The translations under genes were made by a program, and so were the position numbers. Positions 34,403 to 62,938 of a stretch of 64,000 nt of DNA are shown in pieces. The stretch's first letter is position 1; each line of letters opens with the position of its first letter. The stretch covers positions 99,642-163,641 of the forward strand of contig CAYWFX010000003.1 of assembly GCA_964457945.1 (NCBI GenBank), written 5' to 3'. The notes below the pieces were generated by a model. It was given only the letters and a program-made list of their open reading frames with translations, was not told where the DNA came from and did no database searches. The stretch is from an uncultured Syntrophomonas sp. Its GTDB lineage: Bacteria > Bacillota > Syntrophomonadia > Syntrophomonadales > Syntrophomonadaceae.

Positions 34403-34459
34403 AAAATATTCCTCCTTTTAATTGTTATTCAATCCGCTTTTATTGAAAATCTCTGAGAA

Positions 34460-48558: not shown

Positions 48559-50054
48559 CGACCTGTTGACAAACCCCAGATATAAGAAATATTTGATAAA
48601 ATAGTACTGGGGTGATACATAATGATGGGTAAACAAAGTGCGCAGTTACAGATGATCATTTTAGATATGGAACAGATGATACCGCAAACACATTTACTTA
48701 GGAAAATTGATCACATAGTTGACTTTAGTTTCATTTATGAAAGGGCAGCTGGACTTTATGCCAAAAATGGTAGACCTTCTATCGATCCAGTTGTGCTTAT
48801 CAAAATGTTGCTAATTGGCTATATGTATGGCATCAAGTCCGAACGTCGATTGGAACAGGAAGTAAATCTAAATATCGCATATCGCTGGTTTTGCGGGTTG
48901 CAACTAACCGATCGGGTTCCTGACCATAGTACATTCAGTCAAAACCGACGGAGAAGATTTAGCACAAGCGGTATCTTTCAAGAAATATTCTATGAAATCG
49001 TAAGGCAGTGCATTGATCAGGGATTGGTTGATGGGGAGTACACCGTATGTGATGGAAGCTTCCTACCTGCTGAGGTGTCAAGAAGTAGCCATACAACCAT
49101 AGAAACAACCATCCGTAAGAGCATGCAAAGTTATCTGGATGTTTTAGACGAGGAACTTGCCACTCAGCCTGGATACAAATTGGTCGAAGAGCAACCCCAG
49201 GTAATTAATCGCCTAACAAGTAAAACCGATCCAGAGTGTGGATTCATGCATAAGGGCAAAAAGAATGGGATGGGATACCTTGTTGAAACTACAGTGGATT
49301 GTAGTAACGGAATTATTACTGGAGTTGATGTGTATCCGGCCAATCAGAAAGAGAGCAGTATTGTTCTACAACATCTAGAAAAGCAGATTCAGGCGAATGG
49401 TTTGGAAATTAAACGAATAGCATTGGATGGCGGATATGACGTAGGTGCCGTACACCGTGGTCTGGAATTGATGGGAATTGAAGGATATATACCTGCAATT
49501 CCTTATTCAAACGCCCCCGAAAAACAAGGTTTTGTTTATCAATCTCACGATGATTGTTTTGTATGTCCTCGGGGACAGAAAATTAACTATGACAAACTAT
49601 ATTGTGTTCGTACTACCGGTAATTTTCTGAGGTGTTATCTAGCAGCACGTGATACCTGTCAAAACTGTCCGCAAAAATTACCATGTTTGGGCAAGGAAAA
49701 ACGCCGAAGAATCTTGGCCAGTAGTTTTTACCCTGCGTTTTACAGAGGGCATGAACGAGCCAAAGGATTACTTTATGACAAGATGATGCGCCTGCGAGCA
49801 ATTTGGTCAGAAGGTACTTTTTCCGTTTTGAAACGAGAACACAAAATGAAAACGATACAAAAACGCGGGATTGTAAATGCCAGAGAAGAGTGCCTACTGG
49901 CATCCATTGCTTTAAATCTGAAAAGAATGGTAAAAGCCTTACCCAATAAATCATACGATGGTCTTAGTTTAGTATTCTTCAAAGTGTTCATGTTCCCCAT
50001 CATCAACTTAAGAACAAATTAAGCTCCCGAAAAACCATGTTTGTCAACAGGTCG
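48559..50054 (+). mobile_element. IS1182-family (IS5-like DDE) insertion sequence, apparently intact
   Basis: Perfect 16-bp terminal inverted repeats CGACCTGTTGACAAAC (48559..48574) and GTTTGTCAACAGGTCG (50039..50054). Flanked by the 6-bp direct repeat AATAAA (48553..48558 and 50055..50060). Single transposase ORF. Confidence 0.9.
48622..50022 (+). CDS. IS1182/IS5-type DDE transposase
   Basis: 466 aa. N-terminal GRPSIDPVVLIKMLLIGYMYGIKSERRLE motif, with DDE and C-terminal Cys-rich region. Confidence 0.9.
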   Translation: MMGKQSAQLQMIILDMEQMIPQTHLLRKIDHIVDFSFIYERAAGLYAKNGRPSIDPVVLIKMLLIGYMYGIKSERRLEQEVNLNIAYRWFCGLQLTDRVPDHSTFSQNRRRRFSTSGIFQEIFYEIVRQCIDQGLVDGEYTVCDGSFLPAEVSRSSHTTIETTIRKSMQSYLDVLDEELATQPGYKLVEEQPQVINRLTSKTDPECGFMHKGKKNGMGYLVETTVDCSNGIITGVDVYPANQKESSIVLQHLEKQIQANGLEIKRIALDGGYDVGAVHRGLELMGIEGYIPAIPYSNAPEKQGFVYQSHDDCFVCPRGQKINYDKLYCVRTTGNFLRCYLAARDTCQNCPQKLPCLGKEKRRRILASSFYPAFYRGHERAKGLLYDKMMRLRAIWSEGTFSVLKREHKMKTIQKRGIVNAREECLLASIALNLKRMVKALPNKSYDGLSLVFFKVFMFPIINLRTN

Positions 50055-51399
50055 AATAAATTTCGCAAATTGAATTAGCGTCCAGAAAATAAAGGACATG
50101 GGCGCAGCCGCTTGGTAAGATAGAGTTGCAACACAAAATCTGCCAAGAAAGGAGCCACGTAACCATGTCCAATAAGATTATACAACTAAACGAAGGGGCC
50201 ATAAAGCTTGAACTTAAGGAGCTGGTCCGCAACAGCGTGGAGGAAACACTCAATGAACTGCTGGAAAAGGAAGCGGTTGAGCTGACAAATGCAGGACGGT
50301 ATGAAAGAACCGAGGAACGTCAGGGGTATCGCTCTGGTCATTACGAGCGTAACCTGACCACTACCTCAGGCGAGGTGAAGCTTAAGATGCCCAAACTCAA
50401 AGGGGTGGCATTTGAGACCGCCATCATTGAGCGATACCGGCGTCGGGAAAGCTCGGTAGAGGAAGCACTGATTGAAATGTACTTAGCCGGTGTATCAGTG
50501 CGGCGGGTCGAAGACATAACCGAAGCACTATGGGGTACCAAAGTATCTGCAGGTACGGTAAGCAACCTGAACAAGAAGGTCTATGGACATATCGAGACCT
50601 GGCGCAACCGGCCCCTGCAAGGCAAATATCCATATGTATATGTGGACGGGATCTATCTCAAGCGCAACTGGGGCGGTGAATACGAAAACGTAGCCATTCT
50701 GATTGCGATGGCGGTTAACGAAGATGGTTACCGTGAAGTGATCGGGGCTGCGGAGGGAATGAAGGAGGACAAGGCCAGTTGGCAGGAGTTCCTTAAGAGT
50801 CTCAAACAGCGTGGACTGGAAGGCACCCAGCTATTCATAGGCGATAAGTGTCTTGGACTTCTTGAGGCGGTCAATGAGGTGTACCCCGGTTCCAAATATC
50901 AACGCTGCACGGTTCACTTTTACCGCAATGTATTCTCTGTAACCCCTCGCACCAAAATGAAAGAAGTCGCGGCTATGCTTAAGGCCATTCATGCCCAGGA
51001 AAATAAAGAGGTAGCCAGAGAAAAAGCTGCTGCTGTGGCCGCCAAGCTGAAGGAAATGAAACTTAAGGAAGCTGCTAAAAAGATCGAGGATGGTATTCTA
51101 GAAACCCTAACATATATGGACTTCCCATATGCGCACTGGTCAAAACTACGCAGTAACAATGTAATTGAGCGGCTGAACCGAGAGATCCGGCGTCGAACCC
51201 GAGTGGTCGGCACCTTCCCGGATGGTAATTCGGCCTTGATGCTGGTCTGTGCCAGGCTCAGGCATGTGGCCAGTAAGGCATGGGGAACCAAACGCTATAT
51301 GAGCATGAGGCATTTAGAAGAAATGAACAAAGAAGCCAACCTGGTTGCCGGTTAATAGCTAGCTACCAAGCGGCAAATCAAATTTGCGAAAAACTATTG
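50055..51399 (+). mobile_element. IS256-family insertion sequence (outer limits approximate; the left tip may continue at 48552..48558 across the IS1182 insertion)
   Basis: Terminal inverted repeats TTTCGCAAATT (50061..50071) / AATTTGCGAAA (51381..51391). Subterminal repeats GCCGCTTGGTA / TACCAAGCGGC. Mutator-type transposase ORF. Confidence 0.8.
50165..51355 (+). CDS. IS256-family (mutator-type) transposase
   Basis: Start at ATG 50165 after AAGGAG. YVDGIYLK, AMAVNEDGYREV, and QRCTVHFYRNV motifs. Confidence 0.9.
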   Translation: MSNKIIQLNEGAIKLELKELVRNSVEETLNELLEKEAVELTNAGRYERTEERQGYRSGHYERNLTTTSGEVKLKMPKLKGVAFETAIIERYRRRESSVEEALIEMYLAGVSVRRVEDITEALWGTKVSAGTVSNLNKKVYGHIETWRNRPLQGKYPYVYVDGIYLKRNWGGEYENVAILIAMAVNEDGYREVIGAAEGMKEDKASWQEFLKSLKQRGLEGTQLFIGDKCLGLLEAVNEVYPGSKYQRCTVHFYRNVFSVTPRTKMKEVAAMLKAIHAQENKEVAREKAAAVAAKLKEMKLKEAAKKIEDGILETLTYMDFPYAHWSKLRSNNVIERLNREIRRRTRVVGTFPDGNSALMLVCARLRHVASKAWGTKRYMSMRHLEEMNKEANLVAG

Positions 51400-51629: not shown

Positions 51630-51754
51630 TGTGTAGTTTTATAATAAAGTTTATATCGTTTCGGATAAAATAAAGGCAATATTTTAATAATAAAGTTCGT
51701 ATTAATTATTCATCTCTAATTTAAGTGCATTAAATAGTTTAATAATAAAGTTTG
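51630..51754 (+). repeat. Distal (L-like) end: terminal TGTGTAG plus three dispersed copies of (T)AATAATAAAGTTYG
   Basis: Copies at 51641..51652, 51685..51699 and 51740..51754, spaced about 45-55 bp apart, all in the same orientation. Confidence 0.75.
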
Positions 51755-51846
51755 TTCTAATTCTTCATAAGGCTATAATGAATCATACTTACAATATGGA
51801 TCCATATTCATTTCCGCAGCATTTGTCATACCAATTCATTTTATGT

Positions 51847-54800
51847 TTAATGGTCAATATTCTTAGCATCCCTTGCCGACACCAATGCCGCTTTTACCAT
51901 TTCAAGACAAGATAATTGTAGTGTTGACCACTGTTCTTCTGTTGTTGGAAGTTTTTGCCCAATAGCACCCATACACCGTTCTTCAAAGATTTTTTTACTT
52001 TTTGCCCACCTTTCTTCCTCTCCTAATTCTGGCATGCTATGAGATTTATAGTTTCTTAATTGTCGCAATATATATAATGCGGAAGCTAAGTCCTTAAACG
52101 GTACCCTGATTTTCTTATTTCCTGTCCGCATGTCTAATTTTAAATCTCTATTTAAAATGCTGTTAAGACCATCAATGAAGGAATCCCAGTCATCTGGTGT
52201 TCTCACAGTTTTACGAGCCTTATTTAACTCAACAGGATTATCCTGATTCTCAAAAATGTTCTTATCCTCTAAACTATTCTTACCAATCAGTAACTGGCGT
52301 AACTGGTGTTTTATATTGCGGATTTCATCTACAACTATACTCGATTGAGAATTATTTGAATCATCATCCGGTTTTCTACTATCTTTATCATAACCTTCAT
52401 ACTCTGGAGCAGAAATCTTCTCGGGGCGCAGATTTGCACATATGTTCTCACCCTGAACATTTTTACGACGAACCCATTCTTCAACCAGAAGGCTGCAAAA
52501 TCCAAGTTGTCCATCACTATCTGTAATAAAAACTTCGTTATCAACAAGACCTTGTATCACGTCCCCACACTGTCCAATACTATTACAATGTTTGAGCATT
52601 CTATCCCGAGATGTTCTATGGTCATTTAATAAATCTAGAATCAGATACATAACATCCTGTTCAATATGTCCGATTCTCTCTTGTCTACATATACCTTCCT
52701 CAAAATAGGTATCCTGTTCAATGAATCGTTGAATTACAGCCTCGATATCATAATTTGTAACAAAATACCTACGATGCTTGTTTAAAATATCTATTAAATC
52801 ACTGCAAATTATTTGTATGTGCCATGGGTAGCCTGCAGTCAGTTTATAAATGTAATCCACTATTTCACTTGGGATAATGACCTTGGTCTTTTCCAGTGGA
52901 GCAAGAATGGCATTCTGCGCATCTGGTTTGTCTAAAAAAGTAACCTTTTCGCTACGTAAATCTGCCCATATCTGAGCAGGGACCTTATTGGCTAGTTCAT
53001 CACTGGTGTGCCAATCTGCAAATACAACACCGAGTCCGTATTGGGAATCAGTATAAAAATTTCTCAGATCCCCAAGGCAACCACTATCCACGGTACCCTT
53101 ATTTATGCGATCGATAAGACCGTGAAACTCATCCAGCATCAGAATTATTCTTTCAATTCCCGCTTCTTGGCATTCATACAATAACTCTGCGAATTCATCT
53201 GCATCTTTTGCGATTGGAATATCGGTGCCTATACCTCTCTTTCTAAATTCTCCTTGTATTTGTCGGGATAATTTAAAAAAAATATTTGTCCATGAACCAT
53301 CCAAAGTGACAAAAACAACCATAAATTTGTTATTTGAGTCTGAAGTAATTTGTTTTTTTAAAAAGTGCAAGATAGATGTCTTGCCAACCTTTCTAACTCC
53401 TTGAATAAATGGGCGAAACCTATTTTGACGGACTCCGTTAGACAATCTCCCCAGCAATTCCTCTCTGCCATACAAATTGTCTGGTCCATCCACCCTAGGT
53501 TGAAGAGCGTTATGGTCATAAATGGCATCTACATCCATAAACTTTGAGATATTAATAATAACATCCTGAGAATAGCTTTCAGGATTGAGTTGCCTAGGGA
53601 GAGAGGCATATTCTATAACAACTCTGATATCAATAGAGCATTCTTGATAGATTTTATTAATGAAGTTAATTGGCAATGAAATATAGAGAATATCACCACT
53701 CGGGAGTGAGAGTTCCAAATCATTAGAATAAGAGTTCCATTTATCCTGCATAGGGTTTTGCACCTGAATTCGATAAATTGTTAACCCTGCCAGACCGACA
53801 TTTGCAATTTTAGCAATTACATTGACACAGATATCACCCGGTATGAAATAACTACCCGTTTCAAGTTCGAGATTAACCCGAGGCTTTTTAAATTGCTGTT
53901 CTAAATAATCAATACAGTTTCGTAAATTTTGAAATGCATTTAGCAATGCCCCTCGATAAAGAGGAACTATATTGTCAATCTGCTTATCTCTAATATCTTT
54001 TAATTGAGCCGTAATTGCGGGTAGTTCATACCCGTCCCCATTGGATTTATGTTCCAAAGCAATATTGTACAACCTATTTATTAATTCTGGTAGGAGGTTA
54101 TCTGGTTGCTTTTGTAGCGACATTACTGCATCAGCAATTTTCGGCAATAAATTATAGTAAGCGTCTGCGTCAGAAGCGGAAAACCTGCGATTTAACCAGG
54201 TTACCTCTTCAGGCAAGGAAGAGATGTATTTAGATAAATTTTTCATGTCATCTTCTATCTTGGTCAGCTTAGCATCCCAACCCCGCAATGGAAAAACGTT
54301 CTTGTAATGCATTAATGTTTGATATGTATCATAGGCTCTATGATAATCCAATAGTTCATGTCTATAAGCCAAAGCTATGCTTCGATATCCATGATATATT
54401 TGGTATGGCCGAACAGGCAATGAATCCATCAATAGGGTGGCTTTCTCTAGATTAAGGTAGCCTTCTTCAATTTTTCCCTGTCTGCTCATTGCTTTTCCAT
54501 AAAATGAATGCGCTAGGGCAAGGCTGTAAATATTTTCAGCATTAGTTTGATTGCATTCGTATTCAACTTCACGAGCATGTAATACATCCAAGAATAGTGT
54601 GCATCGCTCTTCGGAACTACCTTTATATGAGGAATAGAAAGACACCATTTGATGAAGATCACGACACCCATGTACCATGTCTTTATAAACCCTGCTTTCC
54701 GGATTCAATGGTGGGACAGTATTATGCGAATACTTTGGTATACTATTATTCTCGACTAAGAAACTGGAGGATTCCGGCCATATATGATTCAGTACATCTT

Positions 54801-56058
54801 TATATTTTATGAGAAAATCTCCAGAAATTTGAGATGCTTTCAAAAGTCGTTCCTCTGCTTCATTATTCTGACTAGCCAAATAAGCTAGCAAGCCTGATAC
54901 CATCCATGCTTTCGCATTATTGCTGTACTCCTTTTTAGTGAAGCACGAGGAAACCGTAAACGCTGACCCATATTCGCCCAGATAATAATAGGCGCAGGCA
55001 ACATTCCAGTATACAGCGGCTGGAGTAGAATTATTTTCTAAATGACTTTGTGCTTTCTCTGTAGCATTTTGGTAATCACCATTGGCAACCATGCAATCTA
55101 TTAATGCCCATTCTAATGGGGTTGAATCAAAGCCTTTTGATAATAATTGCTTGATCAGGTTAATTGATTCTTCTATATCTCCATCTGAATATCTTTCGAG
55201 AGATTTAGAATATTCAGATCTCATCTTAAGCCAATTTGAACTCTGCATAAGCTGAGCATATCTAGATGGTGGTCTAGGAATGAGAATGTTTTGAAGGACG
55301 CTTTTGACAGATTGTTGATTGGTTTGTGATGAGCTAATATGAGGTGTTTTATCAGCAATATCGTTTTGTTGCTCAGTAGATGTGAGTGATATGTTTTGCT
55401 GGAGGGTACTATCAGTGGTTCCTGGATCAGGATCTTTGCATGTCGCAACTTGTTGAAGATCTGTTTTCTTAACAGATGCTTCAACTTCTGCAATATATCT
55501 TTGAATTAGATTAGAGTTTTTATTAAGAGCCATTTGCAAATTTTGGCGAGCATTTTCAGTGTCATTACTTTGAAGATTTAATAAACAAAGTAAAAAATGC
55601 CCTCTTTCAGGATGCTGTTCCTGCGGATTATCGATCCATTCCTCTATACACTCCTGGCTTTTGCCGATTTGATGTTTAAGGTAATAAGCTTGTGCCAACC
55701 CCCACAAGGCAGGACCCACTACTGGGTTTGCTTTGTGTAATGGGGCATAGAATTCAATATAGTCGTTGTATTTCCCAATTTTAAGCCAACAAAGTGTTTC
55801 GGATATTCGACTGGTAGTAATTGCCGTTGGTCTATTAGGTAGAGAATTATTTAACTCACGAAATAGCACTGCTGCGGTTTCGTAATCACTATTATCAAAA
55901 TATTGAGCGGCCTTATTGTATTGTTCTAGAATATTAGGGCGATCAAGTACGTATTTACCTGGTCCAACAGTCCACGAACGATGAAATAATTCGTCAATTA
56001 GGCCTAGTTGTATATCGCCATCCAGTATTTGTGATAGAATAATATCAACTTGTTCCAT
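51847..56058 (-). CDS. TPR-repeat / STAND-type P-loop ATPase / C-terminal HEPN-like protein (about 1400 aa)
   Basis: The N-terminal 600 aa or so form two blocks of TPR-like helical repeats split by an S/T/Q-rich linker. ATPase: LYGREELLGRL..GVRKVGKTS (Walker A, 53377..53400) and IILMLDEFH (Walker B, 53122..53145). C-terminus: LRQLRNYKSHS, an R-x4-H HEPN motif (52039..52056). Start set at ATG 56058, which has AAGGAG 9 nt upstream. Confidence 0.75.
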   Translation of the reverse strand: MEQVDIILSQILDGDIQLGLIDELFHRSWTVGPGKYVLDRPNILEQYNKAAQYFDNSDYETAAVLFRELNNSLPNRPTAITTSRISETLCWLKIGKYNDYIEFYAPLHKANPVVGPALWGLAQAYYLKHQIGKSQECIEEWIDNPQEQHPERGHFLLCLLNLQSNDTENARQNLQMALNKNSNLIQRYIAEVEASVKKTDLQQVATCKDPDPGTTDSTLQQNISLTSTEQQNDIADKTPHISSSQTNQQSVKSVLQNILIPRPPSRYAQLMQSSNWLKMRSEYSKSLERYSDGDIEESINLIKQLLSKGFDSTPLEWALIDCMVANGDYQNATEKAQSHLENNSTPAAVYWNVACAYYYLGEYGSAFTVSSCFTKKEYSNNAKAWMVSGLLAYLASQNNEAEERLLKASQISGDFLIKYKDVLNHIWPESSSFLVENNSIPKYSHNTVPPLNPESRVYKDMVHGCRDLHQMVSFYSSYKGSSEERCTLFLDVLHAREVEYECNQTNAENIYSLALAHSFYGKAMSRQGKIEEGYLNLEKATLLMDSLPVRPYQIYHGYRSIALAYRHELLDYHRAYDTYQTLMHYKNVFPLRGWDAKLTKIEDDMKNLSKYISSLPEEVTWLNRRFSASDADAYYNLLPKIADAVMSLQKQPDNLLPELINRLYNIALEHKSNGDGYELPAITAQLKDIRDKQIDNIVPLYRGALLNAFQNLRNCIDYLEQQFKKPRVNLELETGSYFIPGDICVNVIAKIANVGLAGLTIYRIQVQNPMQDKWNSYSNDLELSLPSGDILYISLPINFINKIYQECSIDIRVVIEYASLPRQLNPESYSQDVIINISKFMDVDAIYDHNALQPRVDGPDNLYGREELLGRLSNGVRQNRFRPFIQGVRKVGKTSILHFLKKQITSDSNNKFMVVFVTLDGSWTNIFFKLSRQIQGEFRKRGIGTDIPIAKDADEFAELLYECQEAGIERIILMLDEFHGLIDRINKGTVDSGCLGDLRNFYTDSQYGLGVVFADWHTSDELANKVPAQIWADLRSEKVTFLDKPDAQNAILAPLEKTKVIIPSEIVDYIYKLTAGYPWHIQIICSDLIDILNKHRRYFVTNYDIEAVIQRFIEQDTYFEEGICRQERIGHIEQDVMYLILDLLNDHRTSRDRMLKHCNSIGQCGDVIQGLVDNEVFITDSDGQLGFCSLLVEEWVRRKNVQGENICANLRPEKISAPEYEGYDKDSRKPDDDSNNSQSSIVVDEIRNIKHQLRQLLIGKNSLEDKNIFENQDNPVELNKARKTVRTPDDWDSFIDGLNSILNRDLKLDMRTGNKKIRVPFKDLASALYILRQLRNYKSHSMPELGEEERWAKSKKIFEERCMGAIGQKLPTTEEQWSTLQLSCLEMVKAALVSARDAKNIDH

Positions 56059-56217: not shown

Positions 56218-57210
56218 TTACGTTAAACTAATATAGAGACCCAACCTATCCTTAATAGCTTGCCTAATGTGTGCAGGCGAAATCACCATAGCTGAAGCTC
56301 CCAACGAAAGCACCGATCTAATTACTTCGTCTTTGTCGAATTCATAATAGCTTACTTCCAGTATATAAACCCCATCTTCGCGCACATAGGCTTTTCTAAC
56401 AAAATAAGAAAACAAGGAAAAGCAGCGTTCAATAACATTTTTTTCATCCTTAATAGCAATGACAAGTGGTTCGGACGCTTTTTTACTTTCAATAGATTCA
56501 ATTATATCCCTATTGTCATTATTTGTCTGCTCTTCAATATCCGAAACATTATATAGCCTAGAAATATTGGCCTTGATAGCTCTGCTTTCAGCCATTGAGT
56601 ACATGGATACTCTAAACCTGTTCTCAAGTGTTGAGTATTCTATCCTAAACGGTATAGCACGACAGTTTTCATACTTGCGATCATCTAAGGCAATATTCGA
56701 ATATTGTATTACTGACTTCTTATCTATTGCGTTAAGAATTATTTTGAAGTTGTTAATATAGTCAGCGGCTTTATAATCATCCTTATCTGAATAATTATTT
56801 CTAATATCAAAATGCTTGCTGAAATCAAGTGATTTTTGGTCCATATTAATTAGATTAGTTTGGAGTTTATCGATTACATCCTGTTCAAGAAACAATCTAA
56901 TGCGTTCATCTTTGAGTAAATTTGACAACCAAACTAATTCAATATTCAGGGGCCTTACAGGTATATACCCTTCAAGCTGAGTGTGCGCTTGCTGATTTTT
57001 ATCAAAGAAAAGTAGTTCGAAATTGGCATCAGCTTCCTTGTTTCGGTTAAGAAGAGCATCTATGTAACCGTATACAGGTTCATTAAAACAGTTTTGCATA
57101 AAGCTATCGGCAATCTCATTCTTAGTATAACTATAGCCTGCGTGGAACCGGTTAATTAGGTCAATGGTGTGGGCGATGTATTTGTTTTTATATTCATTAA
57201 ATAGCTTCAT
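56218..57210 (-). CDS. WYL-domain + WCX-like C-terminal domain protein (second of a pair)
   Basis: IPFRIEYSTLENRFRVSMY..IKANISRL has the WYL-like Sm-fold pattern. The C-terminal IRSVLSLGASAMVISPAHIRQAIKDRL is the typical WCX ending. ATG 57210 overlaps the upstream stop by 14 nt. Confidence 0.6.
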   Translation of the reverse strand: MKLFNEYKNKYIAHTIDLINRFHAGYSYTKNEIADSFMQNCFNEPVYGYIDALLNRNKEADANFELLFFDKNQQAHTQLEGYIPVRPLNIELVWLSNLLKDERIRLFLEQDVIDKLQTNLINMDQKSLDFSKHFDIRNNYSDKDDYKAADYINNFKIILNAIDKKSVIQYSNIALDDRKYENCRAIPFRIEYSTLENRFRVSMYSMAESRAIKANISRLYNVSDIEEQTNNDNRDIIESIESKKASEPLVIAIKDEKNVIERCFSLFSYFVRKAYVREDGVYILEVSYYEFDKDEVIRSVLSLGASAMVISPAHIRQAIKDRLGLYISLT

Positions 57211-58519
57211 AATTTTGAGCCCAAACCTCCAATTCTTTAAGAAATTCTTCCCGTAGTTGGTGCCTGTCGCTCTTAATAACCTCCACAAATCCCATGAAGG
57301 TTCTAATCCACGGTTTCATTTCACGTGGGTCAGTAACATCAATGGCATATAAATATCTGCAATCTCCTAATTTTCGAAGTTCGCCCCACTTGCCTCCATC
57401 TTTTATGCGTTTTACCATATATGGTTCATTTTCCGGTGTAAATGTGAATATTAACTCTACCTTAAAAAGACCTAGGTCCCTTTTCAATGGACTGGCACAC
57501 CAACAAAATTGCATATGCTCATCATAAATAGTATCTAAATCTAGTTCTGCCGGTTTGGTTCCGGTTTCCTTAATAAACCTCATACGATCTATTCTAAATA
57601 TTATAGGAATTAAATTCGTTTCTTTAAATGCACATAAGAACCGCCTTCCATAGAGTTCGTCAATAATTATTTTGTGTGGAATAACATCCTGGTTGACAAT
57701 CCACTCTATAGAATCAAATTTTCTATATTCAAATCTGATAAGAGAAGCTTTATTTACCGCAATGATTAATTGCCAAACAGCCTCATCGTCCAGAACATGC
57801 TGGAAATGACAGTGTTTAAACATAAACATATCTGCCTGAACCTCATTGCAGCTTTGTTCAATTTGCATATATTGCTTCAGTGTATCGGATAGATAATATC
57901 CCGGTGTGCAAGGATAAAAGGTGTTTTTATAAAACTTAACTGCTTGGGCAAGGTTTCTTAGTTCAGAATCTGATAAGTGCTTCAAAATATCATCAGCAAC
58001 TGCATAATATAGGTTCTTTCCCTTGTATGTACTTTTTAATATGCCGATTCCACATAATTCCGTTAATTTACGATATACGGTATTATGATTATATCTCTCT
58101 TGGGGCATTTCTGAATTATAATTTTCTATCATAGCTGAGATTTTATTTTCATCTAATCCTCCTGGATGGCAACTCAATAACTGCATTATCTTCAAGTACA
58201 GTTCAATATCCAGGTTAGTAAAGCTCTTGGTTCGAAATGAATCAATTAAATAATTAGTTGTGGTATTAAACATATTGGAACTCATTCTTACATATTTTTT
58301 CTTGTTCTCAATCTGTTCCGTAATGTTACTGTTATCAAGAAAACCTAATATCTTGCGTTTTTCATTATCGTATTTTCTAGAACTTATCCCGCGGTATTCA
58401 AAGTCTGTTCTGGAAAAGCAGCCATATATAAAAATATCTCTTAAAACGCTTCTGAGTTTTTCGTAGTTGCCGACAAAGTCTCGGTTACTGATTCTTTTCA
58501 CTCTTTCACCCCCACCCAC
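57197..58519 (-). CDS. wHTH + WYL + WCX transcriptional regulator (first of a pair)
   Basis: N-terminal wHTH-like region (NTVYRKLTELCGIGILKS). WYL region IRFEYRK..VIPHKIIIDELYGRRFLCAF..IFRIDRM. C-terminal MKPWIRTFMGFVEVIKSDRHQLREEF. Start uncertain (GTG 58519 or GTG 58501). Confidence 0.65.
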   Translation of the reverse strand: MGGGERVKRISNRDFVGNYEKLRSVLRDIFIYGCFSRTDFEYRGISSRKYDNEKRKILGFLDNSNITEQIENKKKYVRMSSNMFNTTTNYLIDSFRTKSFTNLDIELYLKIMQLLSCHPGGLDENKISAMIENYNSEMPQERYNHNTVYRKLTELCGIGILKSTYKGKNLYYAVADDILKHLSDSELRNLAQAVKFYKNTFYPCTPGYYLSDTLKQYMQIEQSCNEVQADMFMFKHCHFQHVLDDEAVWQLIIAVNKASLIRFEYRKFDSIEWIVNQDVIPHKIIIDELYGRRFLCAFKETNLIPIIFRIDRMRFIKETGTKPAELDLDTIYDEHMQFCWCASPLKRDLGLFKVELIFTFTPENEPYMVKRIKDGGKWGELRKLGDCRYLYAIDVTDPREMKPWIRTFMGFVEVIKSDRHQLREEFLKELEVWAQNYEAI

Positions 58520-58570: not shown

Positions 58571-58692
58571 AGCACTGAATAAATTTAGCAATTTCGCATG
58601 GTTTTTGAAATGCACCAATTTTAATAGGGGCTTATTATAGATACACGCTCCAGGTAATACTGAAGCAATACATCACGAGGAGGTGAAAATAC
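58571..58692 (+). promoter_or_regulatory. Upstream module copy A (conserved box TTCGCATGGTTTTTGAAATG, -10-like TATTAT, conserved 5' UTR AGGTAATACTGAAGCAATACAT, strong SD)
   Basis: Aligns base-for-base over about 100 nt with copy B at 59226..59342. The conserved box starts 100 nt before the start codon, versus 101 nt in copy B. Confidence 0.6.
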
Positions 58693-59225: not shown

Positions 59226-59342
59226 ATTAATTTCCAACAAATTCGCATGCTTTTTGAAATGTTTCAATTAAGGTATGCAGTTACAATAAGTACATACCCT
59301 AGGTAATGCTGAATCAACACATAATAAAAGGAGGAGAGTATA
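59226..59342 (+). promoter_or_regulatory. Upstream module copy B (TTCGCATGCTTTTTGAAATG, -10 TACAAT, AGGTAATGCTGAATCAACACAT, SD AAGGAGGAG)
   Basis: Paralogous to 58571..58692, with the same spacing to the start codon. Confidence 0.6.
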
Positions 59343-60161
59343 TTGGAAAACAAAAATCATGGTGGTAGTGTATCTGCTGGTATCAAAGAGGTTTACGAAG
59401 CAAAAGTTGGTATTGAGGCAGTTTCAAGAGCTGGTCAGAATAAGAACCTACACGGCATTGTGCACGAAGTGCTCTATAAAGATGCCCAAACCGTTAATCC
59501 CTCAAACCTAATTAAAGGTACAAAAGCTGTTCTAACAAAGTCTACAACAGCTGTCAGGGACGATGTTCTCCTAATGAACGCTGGGAAAGTTGTAGGACGG
59601 ACTCAATTGAAGGATACTGTCCCATCAATCGGAAAAACTGTTAAGCAAGTTGCATCAGGTAAATATCAAGGTACAACCTTAATGGGAACCAAGGAAACGG
59701 TTAAGGCTTTTAATTCAGAGGTTGCAAAAGCAGCTTCGAATGGAGCTAAGGTGACTCAAAAAATGCAATCCACCGGAATTTCTTCTGCTGATACTGCGCG
59801 CATTGCCGGCAAAGCACTCGGAGGCAATATAACGGGTAAGGCACTTGCAAGCGCTGCAAAAAGTTCAGGTGCAGTAGGTGCAGTGGTCTCTGGCGGTTTT
59901 GAAGTCTTTTCCGCAGGCAAAGATCTTTTAGACGGTCAAATAGACGGAGGAGAATTTGTAGGTAGAGTGGCTAAAGAAGCTACTGGCGGCGGTTTGTCAG
60001 CTGCTGCCGCTGGTACTGCAGCTACTGCACTAACTACCGTAGCTGCCGGATTACTAGCTGGAAGTACAGCGCCTGTGTGGGTACCGGTTGTGGCTGGGTT
60101 TGGAGCTGCAATAGCAGTTGGTTCAGCAGCCAAAGGTTTGTGGGATTTCTTATGGGACTAA
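59343..60161 (+). CDS. 272-aa protein: unknown N-terminal domain (NLHGIVHEVLYKD) + Gly/Ala-rich hydrophobic C-terminal region
   Basis: TTG start 7 nt after AAGGAGGAG. The C-terminal 110 aa or so are GxxxG/AxxxA-rich, ending in a probable TM segment (PVWVPVVAGFGAAIAVGSAAKGLW). A short stretch (ALGGNITGKAL) echoes the 64-aa protein (SLGGNIVSGV). Confidence 0.65.
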   Translation: MENKNHGGSVSAGIKEVYEAKVGIEAVSRAGQNKNLHGIVHEVLYKDAQTVNPSNLIKGTKAVLTKSTTAVRDDVLLMNAGKVVGRTQLKDTVPSIGKTVKQVASGKYQGTTLMGTKETVKAFNSEVAKAASNGAKVTQKMQSTGISSADTARIAGKALGGNITGKALASAAKSSGAVGAVVSGGFEVFSAGKDLLDGQIDGGEFVGRVAKEATGGGLSAAAAGTAATALTTVAAGLLAGSTAPVWVPVVAGFGAAIAVGSAAKGLWDFLWD

Positions 60162-60580
60162 CAAGAACAAAATATCATTCCAGGACAGGAGGAGATGTCT
60201 TTTCCTGTCCTAGCATTTGTAAGCAATTGTAAAAATGAATTTTGATGAGAATTAAAATGTATCGATAGCTTATTGGATATTCTTTGATGAAGTATTTGAT
60301 GACTATGAGTAATCAGACTCTTTTCAAAAGTCGCAACATTTTCCTCGTTTATCTCTAGCGGAAATTCTTCTAATAAAACCACTAATACCTTTTGCAGACG
60401 TTCAATTCCAACTGATAATTGGTATAGCACATGAAAAACTTCACATTCTTCTTCAAACCATTCCATTTTGTCGAAGCATTTCATACCGTTATATATGAAT
60501 GTACCCGCAATATCTATTTCTCTTCCCAAATTAAAATTTTTATAGAACTGAATTAAATTCATAATTACATAATCTCCCAT
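60158..60580 (-). CDS. Hypothetical 140-aa protein, possibly a truncated gene
   Basis: This is the first ORF inside the glmS-proximal end. It has no recognised motifs. The C-terminal tail (TGKDISSCPGMIFCSC) overlaps the convergent gene end by 4 nt. Confidence 0.35.
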   Translation of the reverse strand: MGDYVIMNLIQFYKNFNLGREIDIAGTFIYNGMKCFDKMEWFEEECEVFHVLYQLSVGIERLQKVLVVLLEEFPLEINEENVATFEKSLITHSHQILHQRISNKLSIHFNSHQNSFLQLLTNARTGKDISSCPGMIFCSC

Positions 60581-60630: not shown

Positions 60631-60728
60631 ACCGAACTTTATTTTTCAGTGGGCCATTTCACTCAAACTTTATTTTAATTACTCAGACTTTATTTTATAT
60701 ACTCAAACAATATTTTAAATCTACAACA
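60631..60728 (-). repeat. glmS-proximal (R-like) end: terminal TGTTGTAG + three abutting 20-bp repeats + a fourth copy
   Basis: The plus strand has ACTCAAACTTTATTTTAATT (60661..60680), ACTCAGACTTTATTTTATAT (60681..60700), ACTCAAACAATATTTTAAAT (60701..60720), ACCGAACTTTATTTTTCAGT (60631..60650), and the terminus CTACAACA (60721..60728). Their reverse complement shares the AATAAAGTT core with the distal-end repeats. Confidence 0.8.
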
Positions 60729-60751: not shown

Positions 60752-62656
60752 CTATTCCACCGTGACGCTTTTCGCTAAATTGCGCGGCTTATCGACATCT
60801 GCTCCTCTAAAGATTGCCATGTAATAGGAAAATATTTGCAGAGGTACTACTGATACCATCGGGGCCAGGATGGGGTTTACATTTGGCAAGAGTATCTGCT
60901 CATCGCATTCCTGACAAGCTTCTTGCAGGTTTTCCTTACATATCGCTACTACTACGGCTCCACGGGCTTTTACTTCTTTGATATTGGACATGGTCTTTTC
61001 GACCAAGTTATCTTGAGTAATCAGGGCCAACACTGGTACACCCTCATCGATAAGGGCCAGGGGACCGTGTTTTAACTCTCCGGCGGCATAAGCCTCGGCA
61101 TGGATATAGGATATTTCCTTTAACTTTAAGGCTCCTTCCATGGCTACGGCATAATCCAGACCTCTCCCCAGGAAAAAGGTATCCTGAACACCCTGGTATT
61201 TTTCAGCCAGCTTCTTAATTTTGTCCTCTTCAGTCAAAACCTGCTCCACCAGTTCATCAATATGCGTAATTTCCTCGGCTAGTTCGGCCAACTCTTGCGG
61301 ACTGCAGGTTCCTCTAACCCTGGCCAGGTGAAGCCCCAGGAGATACATTACCAAAAGCTGGGTGGAATATGCCTTGGTGGAAGCGACGGCTATTTCTGGG
61401 CCGGCATGGGTGTAAATGACTCGGTCAGCTTCACGGGCCACAGAGCTCCCTACTACATTCGTAACTGCCAGTACCTTAATACCGTTGCGTTTGGCTTCGC
61501 GCAAAACTGCCAGCGTATCAGCGGTCTCCCCTGATTGACTGATAACCATCATTACAGATTTGGGATTCCAAAGAATATCCCTATAACGGAATTCCGAGGC
61601 TATGTCCGTCTCCACCGAAATGCGGGCCAGTTTTTCCAGGACAGTACGCCCTACCAACCCAGCATGATAGGCAGTTCCGCAGGCTACAATATATATCTTT
61701 TCTACATCGGTAAAAATATCGTCTATCCCTAGATCACTGAGATCAATCATATTGTTTTTTATATTTCCCCGCAGGGTCTCCCTCAGGGCAGTGGGCTGCT
61801 CATGAATTTCTTTGAGCATAAAATGTTCATAGCCGCCTTTTTCTGCTGCTTCCACATCCCAGGTGACTTCAAATATTTCTTTGGCAATCGGGTTACCTGC
61901 AAAGTCAGTAATTACCACGGAATCACTTTTTATTACTACAAACTCGTCATCCTCAATAATGTATACCCTTTTAGTTTTCCCTATAATGGCTGGGATGTCT
62001 GAGGCCAGATAGGTTTCACCTTCACCCAGTCCTACTATCATAGGGCTGGCTTTTTTGGCGGCAATTATTTTGTCGGGTTCATCAGCACATATTACTACTA
62101 TGGCAAAGGAACCATGCACATAAGTTAAGGCTTTACGGACGGCTTCCTCCAGGGAGCCGTTATAATACTTTTCAATTAGATGAACCATTACTTCGGTATC
62201 GGTCTCAGAAACAAAATCATGACCCTCTAATATGAGTTGTTTACGTAAACCGGCATAGTTTTCTATAATCCCATTGTGCACCAGGGCAATACGCCCATTG
62301 CAATCGGTGTGGGGATGTGCGTTAGCATCGCTAGGTACGCCGTGGGTAGCCCAGCGAGTATGTCCAATTGCTAAATTAGTGACCGGAAATTCACCCAGTA
62401 CATCGACCATCTCAGTAAGTCGGCCTTTTTTCTTAACGATTTCGATGCACGCATCTCTATATTCAATAATTGCAGAGCCGCTGCTTTCTTGTTCTCCATT
62501 TTGGTCCACCAACAGTGGCTGATGCTTCTTCTCCTGGGAAGCTTTAAACATGGCAATACCCGCAGAATCATATCCACGGTATTCCAGTTTACTAAGTCCA
62601 TCTATAATTACCGGCACGGCATTACCGTTGCCTATATAACCCATAATTCCACACAT
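60752..62656 (-). CDS. glmS: Glutamine--fructose-6-phosphate aminotransferase
   Basis: MCGI(M)GYIG N-terminal Cys, RLEYRGYDSAG-type motif, two SIS domains, and a C-terminal ..NLAKSVTVE. Confidence 0.97.
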   Translation of the reverse strand: MCGIMGYIGNGNAVPVIIDGLSKLEYRGYDSAGIAMFKASQEKKHQPLLVDQNGEQESSGSAIIEYRDACIEIVKKKGRLTEMVDVLGEFPVTNLAIGHTRWATHGVPSDANAHPHTDCNGRIALVHNGIIENYAGLRKQLILEGHDFVSETDTEVMVHLIEKYYNGSLEEAVRKALTYVHGSFAIVVICADEPDKIIAAKKASPMIVGLGEGETYLASDIPAIIGKTKRVYIIEDDEFVVIKSDSVVITDFAGNPIAKEIFEVTWDVEAAEKGGYEHFMLKEIHEQPTALRETLRGNIKNNMIDLSDLGIDDIFTDVEKIYIVACGTAYHAGLVGRTVLEKLARISVETDIASEFRYRDILWNPKSVMMVISQSGETADTLAVLREAKRNGIKVLAVTNVVGSSVAREADRVIYTHAGPEIAVASTKAYSTQLLVMYLLGLHLARVRGTCSPQELAELAEEITHIDELVEQVLTEEDKIKKLAEKYQGVQDTFFLGRGLDYAVAMEGALKLKEISYIHAEAYAAGELKHGPLALIDEGVPVLALITQDNLVEKTMSNIKEVKARGAVVVAICKENLQEACQECDEQILLPNVNPILAPMVSVVPLQIFSYYMAIFRGADVDKPRNLAKSVTVE

Positions 62657-62732: not shown

Positions 62733-62888
62733 TCATCCACATGTATAGCCTTTTACTAACGCATATTACTATTCGCCTTTGTAGCTATACTAACGGTTGT
62801 GACAACCGGGGGGCACCCGCCGAATCATTCGATAAACCCCCTCCTCGTCACCCGGCCTTCAACTAACGGTTCTGCCGGGTCAGGCGCT
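62733..62888 (-). ncRNA. glmS ribozyme: glmS ribozyme (GlcN6P-dependent self-cleaving riboswitch)
   Basis: The minus strand reads A/GCGCCUGACCCGGCAGAACC...GACGAGGAGGGGGUUUAUCGAAUGAUUCGGCGGGUGCCCCCCGGUUGUCACAACCG.... This matches the conserved core of Bacillus/Thermoanaerobacter glmS ribozymes, including the A/GCGCC cleavage site (62888/62887). Confidence 0.9.
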
Positions 62889-62938
62889 TGCAAGTATCGA
62901 TTCTGAATTCCTCCTTTATTAGGTTTTTAGTCTTACTC

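What the first reader, a model, noticed from the sequence alone, without database searches (positions are those of the whole stretch)
51847..56058. Giant TPR / STAND-ATPase / C-terminal HEPN protein, a candidate NLR-like defence sensor with inverted domain order
The roughly 1400-aa protein has four parts. First are about 600 aa of TPR-like repeats in two blocks separated by a low-complexity S/T/Q linker. Next is a beta-rich middle region. Then comes a P-loop NTPase of the ATPase_2/AAA_16 (STAND/ORC-like) type, with YGRE-ELL, Walker A GVRKVGKTS and Walker B LMLDEFH, followed by a wHTH-like segment. Finally there is an acidic linker and a helical C-terminal domain of about 160 aa containing LRQLRNYKSHS, a textbook R-N-x3-H HEPN RNase motif. 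Described antiviral STAND (Avs) proteins usually have the order effector, NTPase, then C-terminal TPR sensor. Here the repeat array is N-terminal and the putative RNase effector is C-terminal. The gene is also the main cargo of a Tn7-like element next to WYL regulators. This points to an abortive-infection-type RNase switched on by oligomerisation, but the architecture is not one I can assign to a named system.
Basis: partly seen in the sequence, partly recalled or inferred. Interest (0 to 1): 0.8.

Follow-up and report, generated by a model that had tools for sequence, protein, structure and literature searches.

The report
Rare TPR–ATPase–HEPN-like defence candidate
This intact 1403-residue gene encodes a very rare protein with repeats at the front, an ATP-driven switch in the middle and a probable RNA-cutting domain at the end, so it is a plausible but untested single-gene anti-phage sensor carried on a small transposon remnant.

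Summary
The gene is real: window 51847-56058, minus strand, 1403 aa, with a good ribosome-binding site. The described anatomy holds.

- **N-terminus:** TPR repeats.
- **Middle:** a low-confidence beta region, then an intact P-loop ATPase (K893, D976/E977) with a lid and a winged helix.
- **C-terminus:** a 168-aa all-helical domain carrying R1332-x2-R1335-N1336-x3-H1340.

By fold, the ATPase is closest to archaeal Cdc6/Orc1 and the ATPase_2 protein PAB2304. It is homologous (hhalign 99.5%) to an ATPase module found fused to type I restriction-modification methylase/specificity subunits.

The family is tiny. About ten metagenomic relatives (one clade; one member is in an Anaerolineales MAG) share the whole architecture at 30-32% identity.

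The R-N-x3-H motif is invariant in all of them. It sits at the end of a helix with the His in the following loop, as defined for HEPN. No Pfam model, PDB profile search or Foldseek search confirms a HEPN fold, so "HEPN-like" remains an inference.

Relatives lie next to bSEFIR, SIR2-TPR and methylase genes. The window gene follows two WYL genes inside a 9.1-kb element with Tn7-type ends, 23 nt after glmS, and the element has no tns genes.

Verdict: a new variant of a known kind, of moderate interest.

The parts
51847..56058 (-). Whole gene, 1403 aa plus stop. Intact, with AAGGAG 8 nt upstream of the ATG.
   Evidence: Aligns end to end (32% identity) with the 1591-aa homologue P0005.
55459..56058 (-). 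Residues 1-200: N-terminal TPR-like block 1.
   Evidence: NCBIfam and Pfam TPR-type hits are sub-threshold. The homologous region of P0005 hits TPR_2 and TPR_14. 30% identity to the metagenomic clade.
55273..55458 (-). Residues 201-262: S/T/Q-rich low-complexity linker, about 28 aa longer than in relatives.
53914..55272 (-). Residues 263-715: TPR block 2 (263-420), then a variable helical-repeat region (421-715). That region is 295 aa here and about 531 aa in relatives.
   Evidence: Consensus TPR structures match 288-410 (E 6e-5). P0005 hits TPR_19 at 6.5e-13. Indel and 24% identity.
53485..53913 (-). Residues 716-858: beta-rich region, possibly a beta-sandwich.
   Evidence: AlphaFold predicts strands at about residues 744-752, 762-766, 777-781 and 790-798, at pLDDT below 50. 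A similarly placed beta region exists in P0002-like proteins, but homology is not demonstrable (hhalign probability 1.6%).
52669..53484 (-). Residues 859-1130: P-loop ATPase core plus helical lid, of the ORC/Cdc6, ATPase_2 and AAA_16 type.
   Evidence: pLDDT 70-88. Foldseek: 2qby_A 4.4e-9, 2qen 2.4e-8, Apaf-1 5.8e-6. PDB profile hit to Cdc6 at 0.0035. hhalign 99.5% to the P0002-like family, whose members carry AAA_16, ATPase_2 and nSTAND1 annotations. This is the most conserved region (45%).
53374..53400 (-). Walker A GVRKVGKTS (residues 887-895; Lys893).
   Evidence: Invariant in all relatives that cover it.
53122..53142 (-). Walker B LMLDEFH (residues 973-979; Asp976, Glu977).
   Evidence: LDEFH is invariant in all relatives.
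52444..52668 (-). Residues 1131-1205: winged-helix-like segment after the lid.
   Evidence: Helix-helix-helix-strand-strand pattern, but pLDDT below 50. The hhalign match to the P0002-like family runs through it. Foldseek alignments span whole Cdc6/Orc1 and 2qen chains, which end in a winged helix.
52354..52443 (-). Residues 1206-1235: acidic, poorly conserved linker.
   Evidence: 12% identity to relatives. pLDDT below 50.
51850..52353 (-). Residues 1236-1403: six-helix C-terminal domain, the putative HEPN-like effector.
   Evidence: Two AlphaFold runs agree on the helices. An exhaustive phmmer search of 1.84 billion representatives found this domain only in this family. No Pfam, PDB or Foldseek match.
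52039..52065 (-). R1332-Q-L-R1335-N1336-Y-K-S-H1340: candidate catalytic Rx4H motif.
   Evidence: R, R, N and H are invariant in all 11 sequences that hold the domain. The helix ends at N1336 and H1340 lies in the following loop in both models, as defined for HEPN in PMC3710099.
56218..57210 (-). WYL/WCX-domain protein 2 (330 aa), 160 nt upstream of the large gene.
   Evidence: PADLOC WYL 1.7e-8. Pfam WCX 2.9e-5. Gene call in L001.
57197..58519 (-). WYL/WCX-domain protein 1 (440 aa). It overlaps the start of WYL protein 2 by 14 nt.
   Evidence: PADLOC WYL 1.7e-14. Weak Pfam WYL and WCX hits.
60633..60728 (-). glmS-proximal (right-type) end of a Tn7-like element. The terminus is TGTTGTAG, followed by three tandem 20-nt repeats and a fourth copy.
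   Evidence: It lies 23 nt after the glmS stop. Closely packed sites at the end next to the att site match the Tn7 right end (PMC11406308).
51630..51757 (+). Distal (left-type) end of the Tn7-like element. The terminus is TGTGTAG, with repeat copies spaced 46 and 55 nt apart.
   Evidence: Spaced sites match the Tn7 left end. No 5-bp target duplication is visible.
60752..62656 (-). glmS, whose 3' end marks the classical Tn7 attachment site.
   Evidence: Pfam SIS plus GATase. glmS ribozyme just upstream at 62733-62899.

Best explanation
The gene most likely encodes a stand-alone, nucleotide-dependent immune switch that works as follows.
1. The N-terminal TPR and helical-repeat array (about 715 aa) acts as the ligand or protein sensor.
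2. The ORC/Cdc6- and ATPase_2-like AAA+/STAND-type ATPase, with its lid and winged helix, is the switch. It changes state and oligomerises when the sensor is engaged.
3. Oligomerisation brings the C-terminal helical domains together.
4. Those domains form a HEPN-type, metal-independent RNase site from R1335, N1336 and H1340, helped by D1305. RNA cleavage arrests the infected cell (abortive infection).

The gene is the main cargo of a 9.1-kb non-autonomous Tn7-like element inserted 23 nt downstream of glmS. In this genome it probably lies under the control of two WYL-domain regulators.

Shown here: the gene, the domain order, conservation of the ATPase and R-N-x3-H motifs, the fold class of the ATPase, the rarity of the family, the defence-type neighbours and the transposon ends.

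Inferred: that the TPR array is the sensor, that activation is by oligomerisation, that the C-terminal domain is an RNase, and that the system defends against phage.
For: **Conserved architecture**
- The whole architecture is kept over 30-32% identity in about ten relatives.
- Walker A and Walker B are invariant, and the ATPase is the most conserved region at 45%.
- The repeat region is the most variable, at 24% identity with a 236-aa length difference. I would expect that of a sensor.

**ATPase class**
- Foldseek top hits are Cdc6/Orc1 and PAB2304 at E 1e-8 to 1e-9. Apaf-1 also matches at 5.8e-6.
- hhalign gives 99.5% probability to a family annotated AAA_16, ATPase_2 and nSTAND1.

**C-terminal domain**
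- R1332, R1335, N1336 and H1340 are invariant in 11 of 11 sequences, together with D1305 and other polar residues.
- In both AlphaFold models the helix ends at N1336 and H1340 sits in the next loop.
- That is the placement given for the HEPN motif: end of helix 3 and start of the loop, a polar N/D/H after the Arg, an acidic residue in helix 2, and an insert between helices 2 and 3 (PMC3710099).

**Context**
- bSEFIR sits next to the L005 homologue (E 1.7e-62).
- A SIR2_2-TPR protein sits next to the L011 homologue.
- A DNA methylase plus an SMC-like ATPase lie near the L008/L013 homologue.
- The nearest ATPase relatives sit inside type I R-M operons.
- Two WYL genes lie upstream here.
- The element has low GC (0.36-0.39 against 0.43-0.46 in the flanks) and Tn7-type ends.
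- Tn7-like elements are rich in defence cargo (PMC11406308).
Against: - No HEPN family in Pfam matches the C-terminal domain of this protein, or of P0003, P0004 or P0005, even at E up to 1-10.
- A profile of the domain finds no HEPN chain in the PDB.
- Foldseek on a pLDDT-66 model returns only generic helical bundles, best E 0.5.
- No PADLOC model of a named system matches. The only hits are 13-bit matches to PDC-S27 and PDC-S01.
- The WYL genes are not conserved neighbours of the relatives.
- Several relatives sit next to ordinary metabolic genes.
- The beta and winged-helix regions are modelled at low confidence.
- There are no functional data of any kind.
Confidence: 0.5

Rival explanations
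1. It is a defence or conflict protein, but the ATPase and winged-helix module senses nucleic acid, as proposed for BrxC and DUF499/HmaC. The TPR array is then a scaffold for partners rather than the sensor. The C-terminal domain could be an RNase or a nucleotide- or nucleic-acid-binding regulatory domain.
For: - The closest structural matches are DNA-binding initiators, Cdc6/Orc1 with DNA.
- The closest sequence relatives of the module are fused to the DNA-recognising HsdM/HsdS parts of type I R-M systems.
- ORC/Cdc6-type ATPases with a winged helix are the anchoring ATPases of BREX and BREX-related systems, some of them fused to HEPN (PMC12839542).
Against: - Neither the window element nor the relatives' loci show a consistently adjacent methylase or helicase partner gene.
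- The winged-helix segment is poorly conserved (28%) and modelled at low confidence.
Confidence: 0.2
2. It is a MalT-like signal-transduction ATPase with no role in immunity. The TPR array senses a ligand or partner, the ATPase switches, and the winged helix together with the C-terminal helical domain gives a regulatory rather than nucleolytic output.
For: - Many STAND clades are not defence-related: 391 of 589 in PMC13581612.
- There is no profile or fold confirmation of a nuclease.
- Some relatives have metabolic neighbours, such as an M20 peptidase, an indigoidine synthase A-like protein and an amidohydrolase.
Against: - An invariant cluster of R, R, N, H, D and E residues in the last domain looks like an active site.
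- Defence genes lie next to three relatives.
- The gene is carried on a mobile element with lower GC than the flanks.
- The sparse, patchy distribution, with about ten sequences among 15 billion proteins, is more typical of conflict genes than of regulators.
Confidence: 0.15
3. It is a toxin-type addiction or stabilisation module of the Tn7-like element. The large protein is a regulated toxin, kept off by the WYL proteins, that penalises loss of the element.
For: - It occupies 46% of a 9.1-kb element that has no transposition genes.
- It lies directly downstream of two co-oriented WYL genes.
Against: - The relatives are not found with WYL genes.
- No Tn7-type context was noticed around the relatives: the neighbouring genes scanned were not tns-like. 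Their flanks were not searched for end repeats.
- A 1403-aa sensor-switch architecture is far more elaborate than addiction toxins need.
Confidence: 0.08

Closest known systems
Antiviral STAND (Avs) / bacterial NLR-like proteins
   Same: One very large polypeptide that combines a TPR-type repeat array, a central oligomerising P-loop switch with a winged helix, and a putative nuclease effector. It occurs in defence-type neighbourhoods.
   Different: - The order is reversed. Here it is repeats, ATPase, effector. Avs is effector, ATPase, C-terminal sensor (PMC13581612).
- No Avs model in PADLOC matches.
- The ATPase is nearer to ORC/Cdc6 and ATPase_2 than to Apaf-1 in Foldseek ranking.
HEPN-STAND-TPR(-S1) proteins of Anantharaman et al. 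2013 (Npun_F6454, MED222_16016, Desac_1927)
   Same: The same three ingredients in one protein: a HEPN-type RNase, a STAND-type ATPase and TPR repeats (PMC3710099).
   Different: - In those proteins HEPN is N-terminal and belongs to a recognisable HEPN family.
- Here the HEPN-like domain is C-terminal and matches no HEPN model.
- I could not fetch those sequences to compare them directly.
DUF499 ATPase (HmaC; type-1 BREX-related systems) and BrxC
   Same: A STAND/ORC-Cdc6-type AAA+ ATPase followed by a helical bundle and a winged helix. DUF499 is often fused to a HEPN endoRNase proposed as a suicide effector (PMC12839542).
   Different: - In DUF499 the HEPN domain is N-terminal.
- Those proteins work with a methylase and a helicase-nuclease encoded alongside.
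- Here there are no such partners, a large TPR array is present, and no DUF499 or BrxC model hit was obtained.
P0002-like ATPase module attached to type I R-M HsdM/HsdS
   Same: Homologous ATPase, lid and winged-helix region: hhalign 99.5%, E 8e-23, over 330 columns. It shares the YGR[ED]ELL, G-x-R-x-GKTSIL and LMLDEF motifs. A beta-rich region precedes the ATPase in both.
   Different: - Only about 21-25% identity.
- The N-terminus is a methylase/specificity fusion, or is absent, instead of TPR.
- There is no C-terminal R-N-x3-H domain.
- Homology of the beta regions is not demonstrable.
PrrC/RloC and RNase L/Ire1 (from my own knowledge, plus the table in PMC3710099)
   Same: A nucleotide-binding regulatory module followed by a C-terminal HEPN-type RNase that switches on through oligomerisation or dimerisation.
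   Different: The regulatory modules are unrelated (an ABC ATPase, or a kinase) and there is no TPR sensor. This is an analogy of mechanism only.

Membership tests
HEPN superfamily | Rx4-6H motif with a polar residue (N, D or H) directly after the Arg | tested here: met
   R1335-N1336-Y-K-S-H1340. R, N and H are invariant in 11 of 11 family members. Definition from PMC3710099.
HEPN superfamily | [quoted passage not shown] | tested here: met
   Both AlphaFold models end a helix at residue 1336 and place H1340 in the following loop, which has low confidence. These are models only, at pLDDT 56-66.
HEPN superfamily | A second conserved acidic residue in helix 2 (typically Ex3[KR]), and an insert between helices 2 and 3 | tested here: inconclusive
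   D1305 is invariant, just after helix 1288-1303. It reads D-x3-R in the metagenomic clade but D-x-K in the window protein. A low-confidence insert follows at about 1304-1318.
HEPN superfamily | Four-helix up-down bundle recognisably similar to solved HEPN structures | tested here: inconclusive
   Foldseek against the PDB and BFVD gives a best E of 0.5-0.6 and only generic helical bundles, with no HEPN entry. The model quality is moderate (pTM 0.68).
HEPN superfamily | Profile match to a described HEPN family | tested here: not met
   No Pfam HEPN-type family matched at E up to 10 for the window domain, or up to 1 for P0003, P0004 and P0005. The PDB profile search gave no HEPN chain. A profile-profile search (HHpred) could not be run.
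HEPN superfamily | Metal-independent RNase activity | not testable with these tools
   Needs biochemistry.
STAND / ORC-Cdc6-type AAA+ NTPases | Intact Walker A and Walker B motifs in a five-stranded P-loop core | tested here: met
   GVRKVGKTS and LMLDEFH are invariant. The AlphaFold core has pLDDT 70-88 and five strands.
STAND / ORC-Cdc6-type AAA+ NTPases | Helical lid plus C-terminal winged helix after the core, and a two-helix insert after strand 2 | tested here: met
   Foldseek aligns 370-430 columns with whole Cdc6/Orc1, ORC2 and PAB2304 chains (E 4e-9 to 1e-7). Two helices follow strand 2 in the model. The winged-helix part itself has pLDDT below 50.
STAND / ORC-Cdc6-type AAA+ NTPases | Above-threshold match to a curated STAND or AAA_16/ATPase_2 model | tested here: not met
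   - On this protein AAA_16 scores 20 bits (cut-off 32.6), ATPase_2 14 bits and nSTAND6 15 bits.
- The link is indirect. hhalign gives 99.5% to a family whose members carry precomputed AAA_16, ATPase_2 and nSTAND1 hits.
STAND / ORC-Cdc6-type AAA+ NTPases | Fusion to superstructure-forming repeats | tested here: met
   TPR array at the N-terminus.
Avs (antiviral STAND) families | N-terminal effector, central STAND ATPase, C-terminal sensor, and a match to Avs models | tested here: not met
   The order is reversed. PADLOC returns no Avs model.
Tn7-like transposon | Insertion just downstream of glmS with TGT termini and arrays of transposase-binding repeats, packed at one end and spaced at the other | tested here: met
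   End architecture as described in PMC11406308.
Tn7-like transposon | tnsA/B/C and tniQ/tnsD genes, and a 5-bp target-site duplication | tested here: not met
   - No such genes lie within the element or among the ORFs examined in the window (Pfam scans for 42-64 kb; translations of ORFs of 280 aa or more at 13-38 kb read by eye). ORFs at 1-13 kb and shorter ORFs were not checked.
- The flanks read AACCT and CTCTT.
- It is therefore a non-autonomous or decayed element.

The most novel reading that the evidence does not exclude
This would be the founding member of an undescribed family of single-protein immune receptors with reversed polarity: sensor repeats at the N-terminus and effector at the C-terminus. 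It is built on an ORC/Cdc6- and ATPase_2-like ATPase module that is otherwise attached to type I restriction-modification subunits. It ends in a new HEPN family that no current profile recognises. If true, ATP-driven pattern-recognition switches were assembled more than once, from different AAA+ lineages and in both orientations.
Probability: 0.35. Interest if true: 0.65.

Novelty: new variant of a known kind. Interest (0 to 1): 0.5.

Why it matters
If the prediction holds, it adds a very rare defence family that no model I could run here (PADLOC, Pfam, NCBIfam) recognises.

- It would show that the repeat-switch-effector logic of NLR-like receptors also works with the parts in the opposite order.
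- It would do so on an ATPase lineage closer to replication initiators and to R-M-associated ATPases.
- It would define a new HEPN-like RNase domain.
- It gives a compact test case of a defence gene riding a transposase-less Tn7-type element at glmS, with WYL regulators.

In practice it is a clean single-gene candidate for heterologous phage-challenge experiments, with obvious point mutants.

Tried and rejected
**Searches that found little or nothing**
- Word-indexed searches of 5.8 billion proteins with the full protein, and with a two-sequence profile, found only the protein itself and one R-M fusion. The relatives came only from the exhaustive phmmer search with the C-terminal domain and from pattern scans of metagenomes.
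- The first genome-contig scan used TPR patterns and found nothing. The second found a single Anaerolineales MAG.
- There are no relatives in IMG/VR viral contigs or GenBank phages. Among plasmids there is one weak ATPase hit, on a Burkholderia 3.5-Mb replicon with no annotation.

**Tests of the HEPN idea that gave no match**
- Pfam, NCBIfam and PADLOC scans of the C-terminal domain.
- A PDB profile search.
- Foldseek against the PDB and BFVD.
- The supplement of the HEPN paper holds no alignments, so I could not build HEPN profiles for hhalign.

**Other dead ends**
- Homology between the beta regions of this family and of P0002-like proteins was tested and is not significant.
- I first judged the Tn7 claim unsupported because no tns genes are present. 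I reversed that after the repeat scan showed Tn7-type ends.
- I rejected the idea that the WYL genes are an obligatory part of the system, because no relative has them nearby.
- No inverted-repeat operator was found in the 160-nt gap upstream of the gene.

Full report
**1. The observation**

The minus strand carries one uninterrupted ORF from 56094 to 51847. The ATG at 56058 has AAGGAG 8 nt upstream and gives a 1403-aa protein. This protein is in the public collection as a singleton (P0001), seen on a 231,870-nt NCBI contig and on one Logan contig.

All the quoted motifs are present:
- YGREELL at 863-869
- GVRKVGKTS at 887-895
- LMLDEFH at 973-979
- LRQLRNYKSHS at 1331-1341

The window comes from a Firmicutes-type genome. 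Its HydF falls in a 90%-identity cluster with a protein named 'Firmicutes bacterium' MAG, and a glmS ribozyme precedes glmS.

**2. Direct annotation is almost empty**

Pfam, NCBIfam and PADLOC give only sub-threshold hits:
- TPR-type families in the first 420 residues.
- AAA_16 (20 bits against a cut-off of 32.6), ATPase_2 and nSTAND6 on residues 860-980.
- 13-bit hits to the PADLOC candidates PDC-S27 and PDC-S01.

Nothing at all matches residues 621-826 or the last 168 residues. PDB sequences give only designed consensus TPR proteins, on residues 288-410 (E 6e-5).

**3. Relatives**

The word-indexed search of 5.8 billion proteins found only the protein itself and P0002. P0002 is a 1325-aa 'type I restriction enzyme M protein' whose last 430 residues align with residues 830-1119 (21% identity, pairwise E 2e-15).

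An exhaustive phmmer search of 1.84 billion cluster representatives with residues 1236-1403 found three more proteins. One of them, P0005 (1591 aa), aligns with the window protein from the first to the last residue at 32% identity.

Pattern scans then recovered 11 JGI metagenome loci and one GTDB genome, an uncultured Anaerolineales MAG. Full-length genes of 1589-1600 aa are present in L003, L005 and L008/L009/L013.

These relatives form one clade, 50-90% identical to each other and 30-32% identical to the window protein, which is the lone divergent member. The family is therefore real, purified by selection along its whole length, and extremely rare. Nothing similar occurs in IMG/VR or GenBank phages, and there is only one weak ATPase hit among plasmids.

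**4. Anatomy, region by region**

*(a) Residues 1-715: helical repeats.*
- P0005 has above-threshold TPR_19 (6.5e-13), TPR_16 and TPR_2 hits.
- The S/T/Q linker (201-262) is about 28 aa longer in the window protein than in its relatives.
- Residues 421-715 are the most variable part, at 24% identity, and measure 295 aa against about 531 aa in the relatives.

*(b) Residues 716-858: beta-rich region.* AlphaFold predicts four strands between about 744 and 798, at pLDDT 31-50. A beta region occupies the same position in P0002-like proteins, but hhalign does not support homology.

*(c) Residues 859-1205: ATPase, lid and winged helix.*
- It is the best conserved part (45% identity over 859-1130), and Walker A and Walker B are invariant.
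- The AlphaFold core has pLDDT 70-88. It shows five strands, two helices inserted after strand 2, a helical lid, and then a helix-helix-helix-strand-strand segment.
- Foldseek against the PDB gave 575 hits at E of 0.001 or better.

| Target | E-value | Note |
|---|---|---|
| Cdc6/Orc1 2qby_A | 4.4e-9 | archaeal initiator bound to DNA |
| PAB2304 2qen | 2.4e-8 | ATPase_2 protein, TM 0.61 normalised to the target |
| ORC2 1w5s | 7.8e-8 | archaeal ORC2 |
| Apaf-1 3sfz | 5.8e-6 | rank 43 |

Clamp loaders also appear high in the list.
- A sequence profile also finds Cdc6 (E 0.0035) and 2qen (E 0.08).
- A profile that included P0002 retrieved 57 proteins carrying precomputed AAA_16, ATPase_2 and nSTAND1 annotations. 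Many of them are called type I R-M M proteins by JGI.
- A profile of the window family without P0002 matches that family at 99.5% probability (E 8e-23) over 330 columns, through the winged helix.
- P0002 itself is the fourth gene of an hsdR-hsdM-hsdS operon.

The switch is therefore an active-looking AAA+ ATPase of the ORC/Cdc6, ATPase_2 and AAA_16 kind, on the border with STAND. It is not a NACHT or NB-ARC type.

*(d) Residues 1206-1235: acidic linker.* Identity to the relatives is 12%.

*(e) Residues 1236-1403: all-alpha domain found only in this family.*

**5. Is the last domain HEPN?**

*For:*
- R1332, R1335, N1336 and H1340 are invariant in all 11 sequences that contain the domain. So are D1305, E1277, E1349, E1359/E1360 and other polar residues.
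- Two separate AlphaFold runs (pLDDT 66 with pTM 0.68 for the domain alone, and the second within a 688-aa model) give the same six helices: 1237-1258, 1275-1282, 1288-1303, 1319-1336, 1347-1361 and 1374-1401. The motif-bearing helix therefore ends at N1336 and H1340 lies in the following flexible loop.
- The reference description of the superfamily states these features:
  - The residue after the Arg is usually N, D or H.
  - A second acidic residue lies in helix 2, often as Ex3[KR].
  - Inserts are frequent between helices 2 and 3 (PMC3710099).
- Three of these features are met outright. The fourth, the acidic residue, is met in part: D1305 reads D-x3-R in the relatives and D-x-K here, and a disordered insert follows it.

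*Against:*
- No Pfam HEPN family matches any member.
- A family profile finds no HEPN chain in the PDB.
- Foldseek returns only generic up-down helical bundles such as PA26/PA28 and designed bundles, with a best E of 0.5.

HEPN families are notoriously divergent and were originally united by profile-profile methods that I could not run. I put the probability that this is a HEPN-type RNase at about 0.55-0.6.

**6. Context**

*Around the window gene.*
- The two co-oriented genes directly upstream are WYL/WCX proteins (PADLOC WYL 1.7e-14 and 1.7e-8; Pfam WCX). Their reading frames overlap by 14 nt, and a 160-nt gap separates them from the large gene.
- The stretch from 52 to 60 kb has lower GC (0.36-0.39) than its flanks (0.43-0.46).

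- The 11-mer AATAAAGTYYG occurs five times in 64 kb against 0.23 expected. Two copies lie on the plus strand at 51689 and 51744, and three on the minus strand at 60633, 60664 and 60684.
- Read inward, the glmS-side end starts TGTTGTAG at 60728, 23 nt after the glmS stop codon. It carries three tandem 20-nt repeats plus a fourth copy.
- The far end starts TGTGTAG at 51630, with copies spaced 46 and 55 nt apart.
- Packed sites next to the att site and spaced sites at the other end are the Tn7 right-end and left-end pattern. Tn7-like elements are known to be rich in defence cargo (PMC11406308).
- The 9.1-kb element holds only five ORFs: a 140-aa ORF, a 272-aa Gly/Ala-rich ORF, the two WYL genes and the large gene.
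- No tnsA/B/C/D gene is present in the element or among the window ORFs I examined. No 5-bp duplication is visible. It is a non-autonomous or decayed element.
- Two insertion sequences lie just outside its far end.

*Around the relatives.*
- L005 has bSEFIR (E 1.7e-62).
- L011 has a 793-aa SIR2_2-TPR protein.
- L008/L013 has a DNA methylase (N6_N4_Mtase plus DUF1156) and an SMC_N ATPase.
- Others have metabolic neighbours or too little flank.
- WYL genes are not conserved partners.

**7. Mechanism**

The best-supported reading is a one-protein, ATP-dependent sensor-switch-effector.
- The variable TPR array binds a trigger.
- The AAA+ module oligomerises.
- The C-terminal domains are brought together and form a HEPN-type RNase site, giving abortive infection.
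- WYL proteins add local transcriptional control in this genome.

Only the parts list, the conserved catalytic-type residues and the genomic associations are shown. Every functional step is inferred.

The main rival keeps the defence role but makes the ATPase and winged-helix module the nucleic-acid sensor. It rests on the ORC-like fold and on kinship with R-M-attached modules and with BrxC and DUF499 (PMC12839542). A non-immune MalT-like regulator and a transposon addiction toxin are less likely.

**8. Comparison and novelty**

The theme is known.
- HEPN fused to STAND and TPR was listed in 2013 (PMC3710099).
- HEPN fused to ORC/Cdc6-type DUF499 ATPases is widespread.
- Avs proteins are the paradigm of TPR-sensing STANDs, described as N-terminal effector, central NTPase and C-terminal sensor.

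This family differs in four ways:
- The polarity is reversed.
- The ATPase lineage is different.
- The effector domain matches no existing model.
- The family is very rare.

It fails the membership tests for Avs, and for any named HEPN family at profile level, while working like both. I class it as a new variant of a known kind. It is a good experimental candidate of moderate, not high, surprise value.

Noticed in passing
window 51630-51757 and 60633-60728: Tn7-type transposon ends bound a 9.1-kb element inserted 23 nt downstream of glmS. The ends have TGT termini, packed repeats on the glmS side and spaced repeats on the far side. The element has no tnsA/B/C/D genes and no visible 5-bp target duplication, so it is a non-autonomous or decayed Tn7-like element.
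   Followed up: yes
window 48559-50054 and 50061-51391: Two insertion sequences lie side by side just outside the far end of the Tn7-like element. One is an IS1182/IS5-type (DUF772 plus DDE_Tnp_1_6 transposase) with perfect 16-nt inverted repeats. The other is an IS256-type (Transposase_mut) with 19-nt imperfect inverted repeats.
   Followed up: partly
window 58589-58673 and 59238-59322: An 85-nt direct repeat (72% identity) sits in the ORF-free 820-nt gap between the first WYL gene and the divergent 272-aa ORF. No Rfam family matches it, and its purpose is unknown.
   Followed up: no
window 59343-60161 (+): A 272-aa ORF with a Gly/Ala-rich, probably membrane-associated C-terminal half. It has no Pfam hit, only weak matches to the PADLOC candidate PDC-M72B (E 7.5e-4).
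   Followed up: partly
window 60158-60580 (-): A 140-aa ORF directly inside the glmS-side transposon end. Its only hit is a weak partial match to nSTAND_NTPase7 (E 0.027). It may be a gene remnant.
   Followed up: no
window 62733-62899 (-): A glmS ribozyme (Rfam RF00234, 99 bits) lies upstream of glmS.
   Followed up: yes
L014 3022-13545 (JGI Ga0502775_0000670): A type I R-M operon (hsdR, hsdM, hsdS) is followed by P0002, a second HsdM/HsdS fusion carrying a beta region, the related ATPase and a winged helix. Next comes a 524-aa AAA_16/ATPase_2/NACHT-like protein. At least 57 relatives of this ATPase module exist, many of them called 'type I restriction enzyme M protein'. I did not look for a published description of this R-M-attached ATPase family.
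   Followed up: partly
L011 1303-3684; L005 152-1207: Defence-type genes lie directly beside two relatives of the large protein. One is a 793-aa SIR2_2 plus TPR protein, and the other is a bSEFIR/TIR protein.
   Followed up: partly
window 29513-37050 (-): A cluster that looks like a peptide or bacteriocin maturation and export locus. It holds two ABC transporters, one with an N-terminal region that looks like a peptidase domain, a 297-aa protein that looks like a membrane-fusion (HlyD-type) protein, and a protein that looks like a radical-SAM/SPASM enzyme. All these names are my reading of the translations. No family search was run on them.
   Followed up: no
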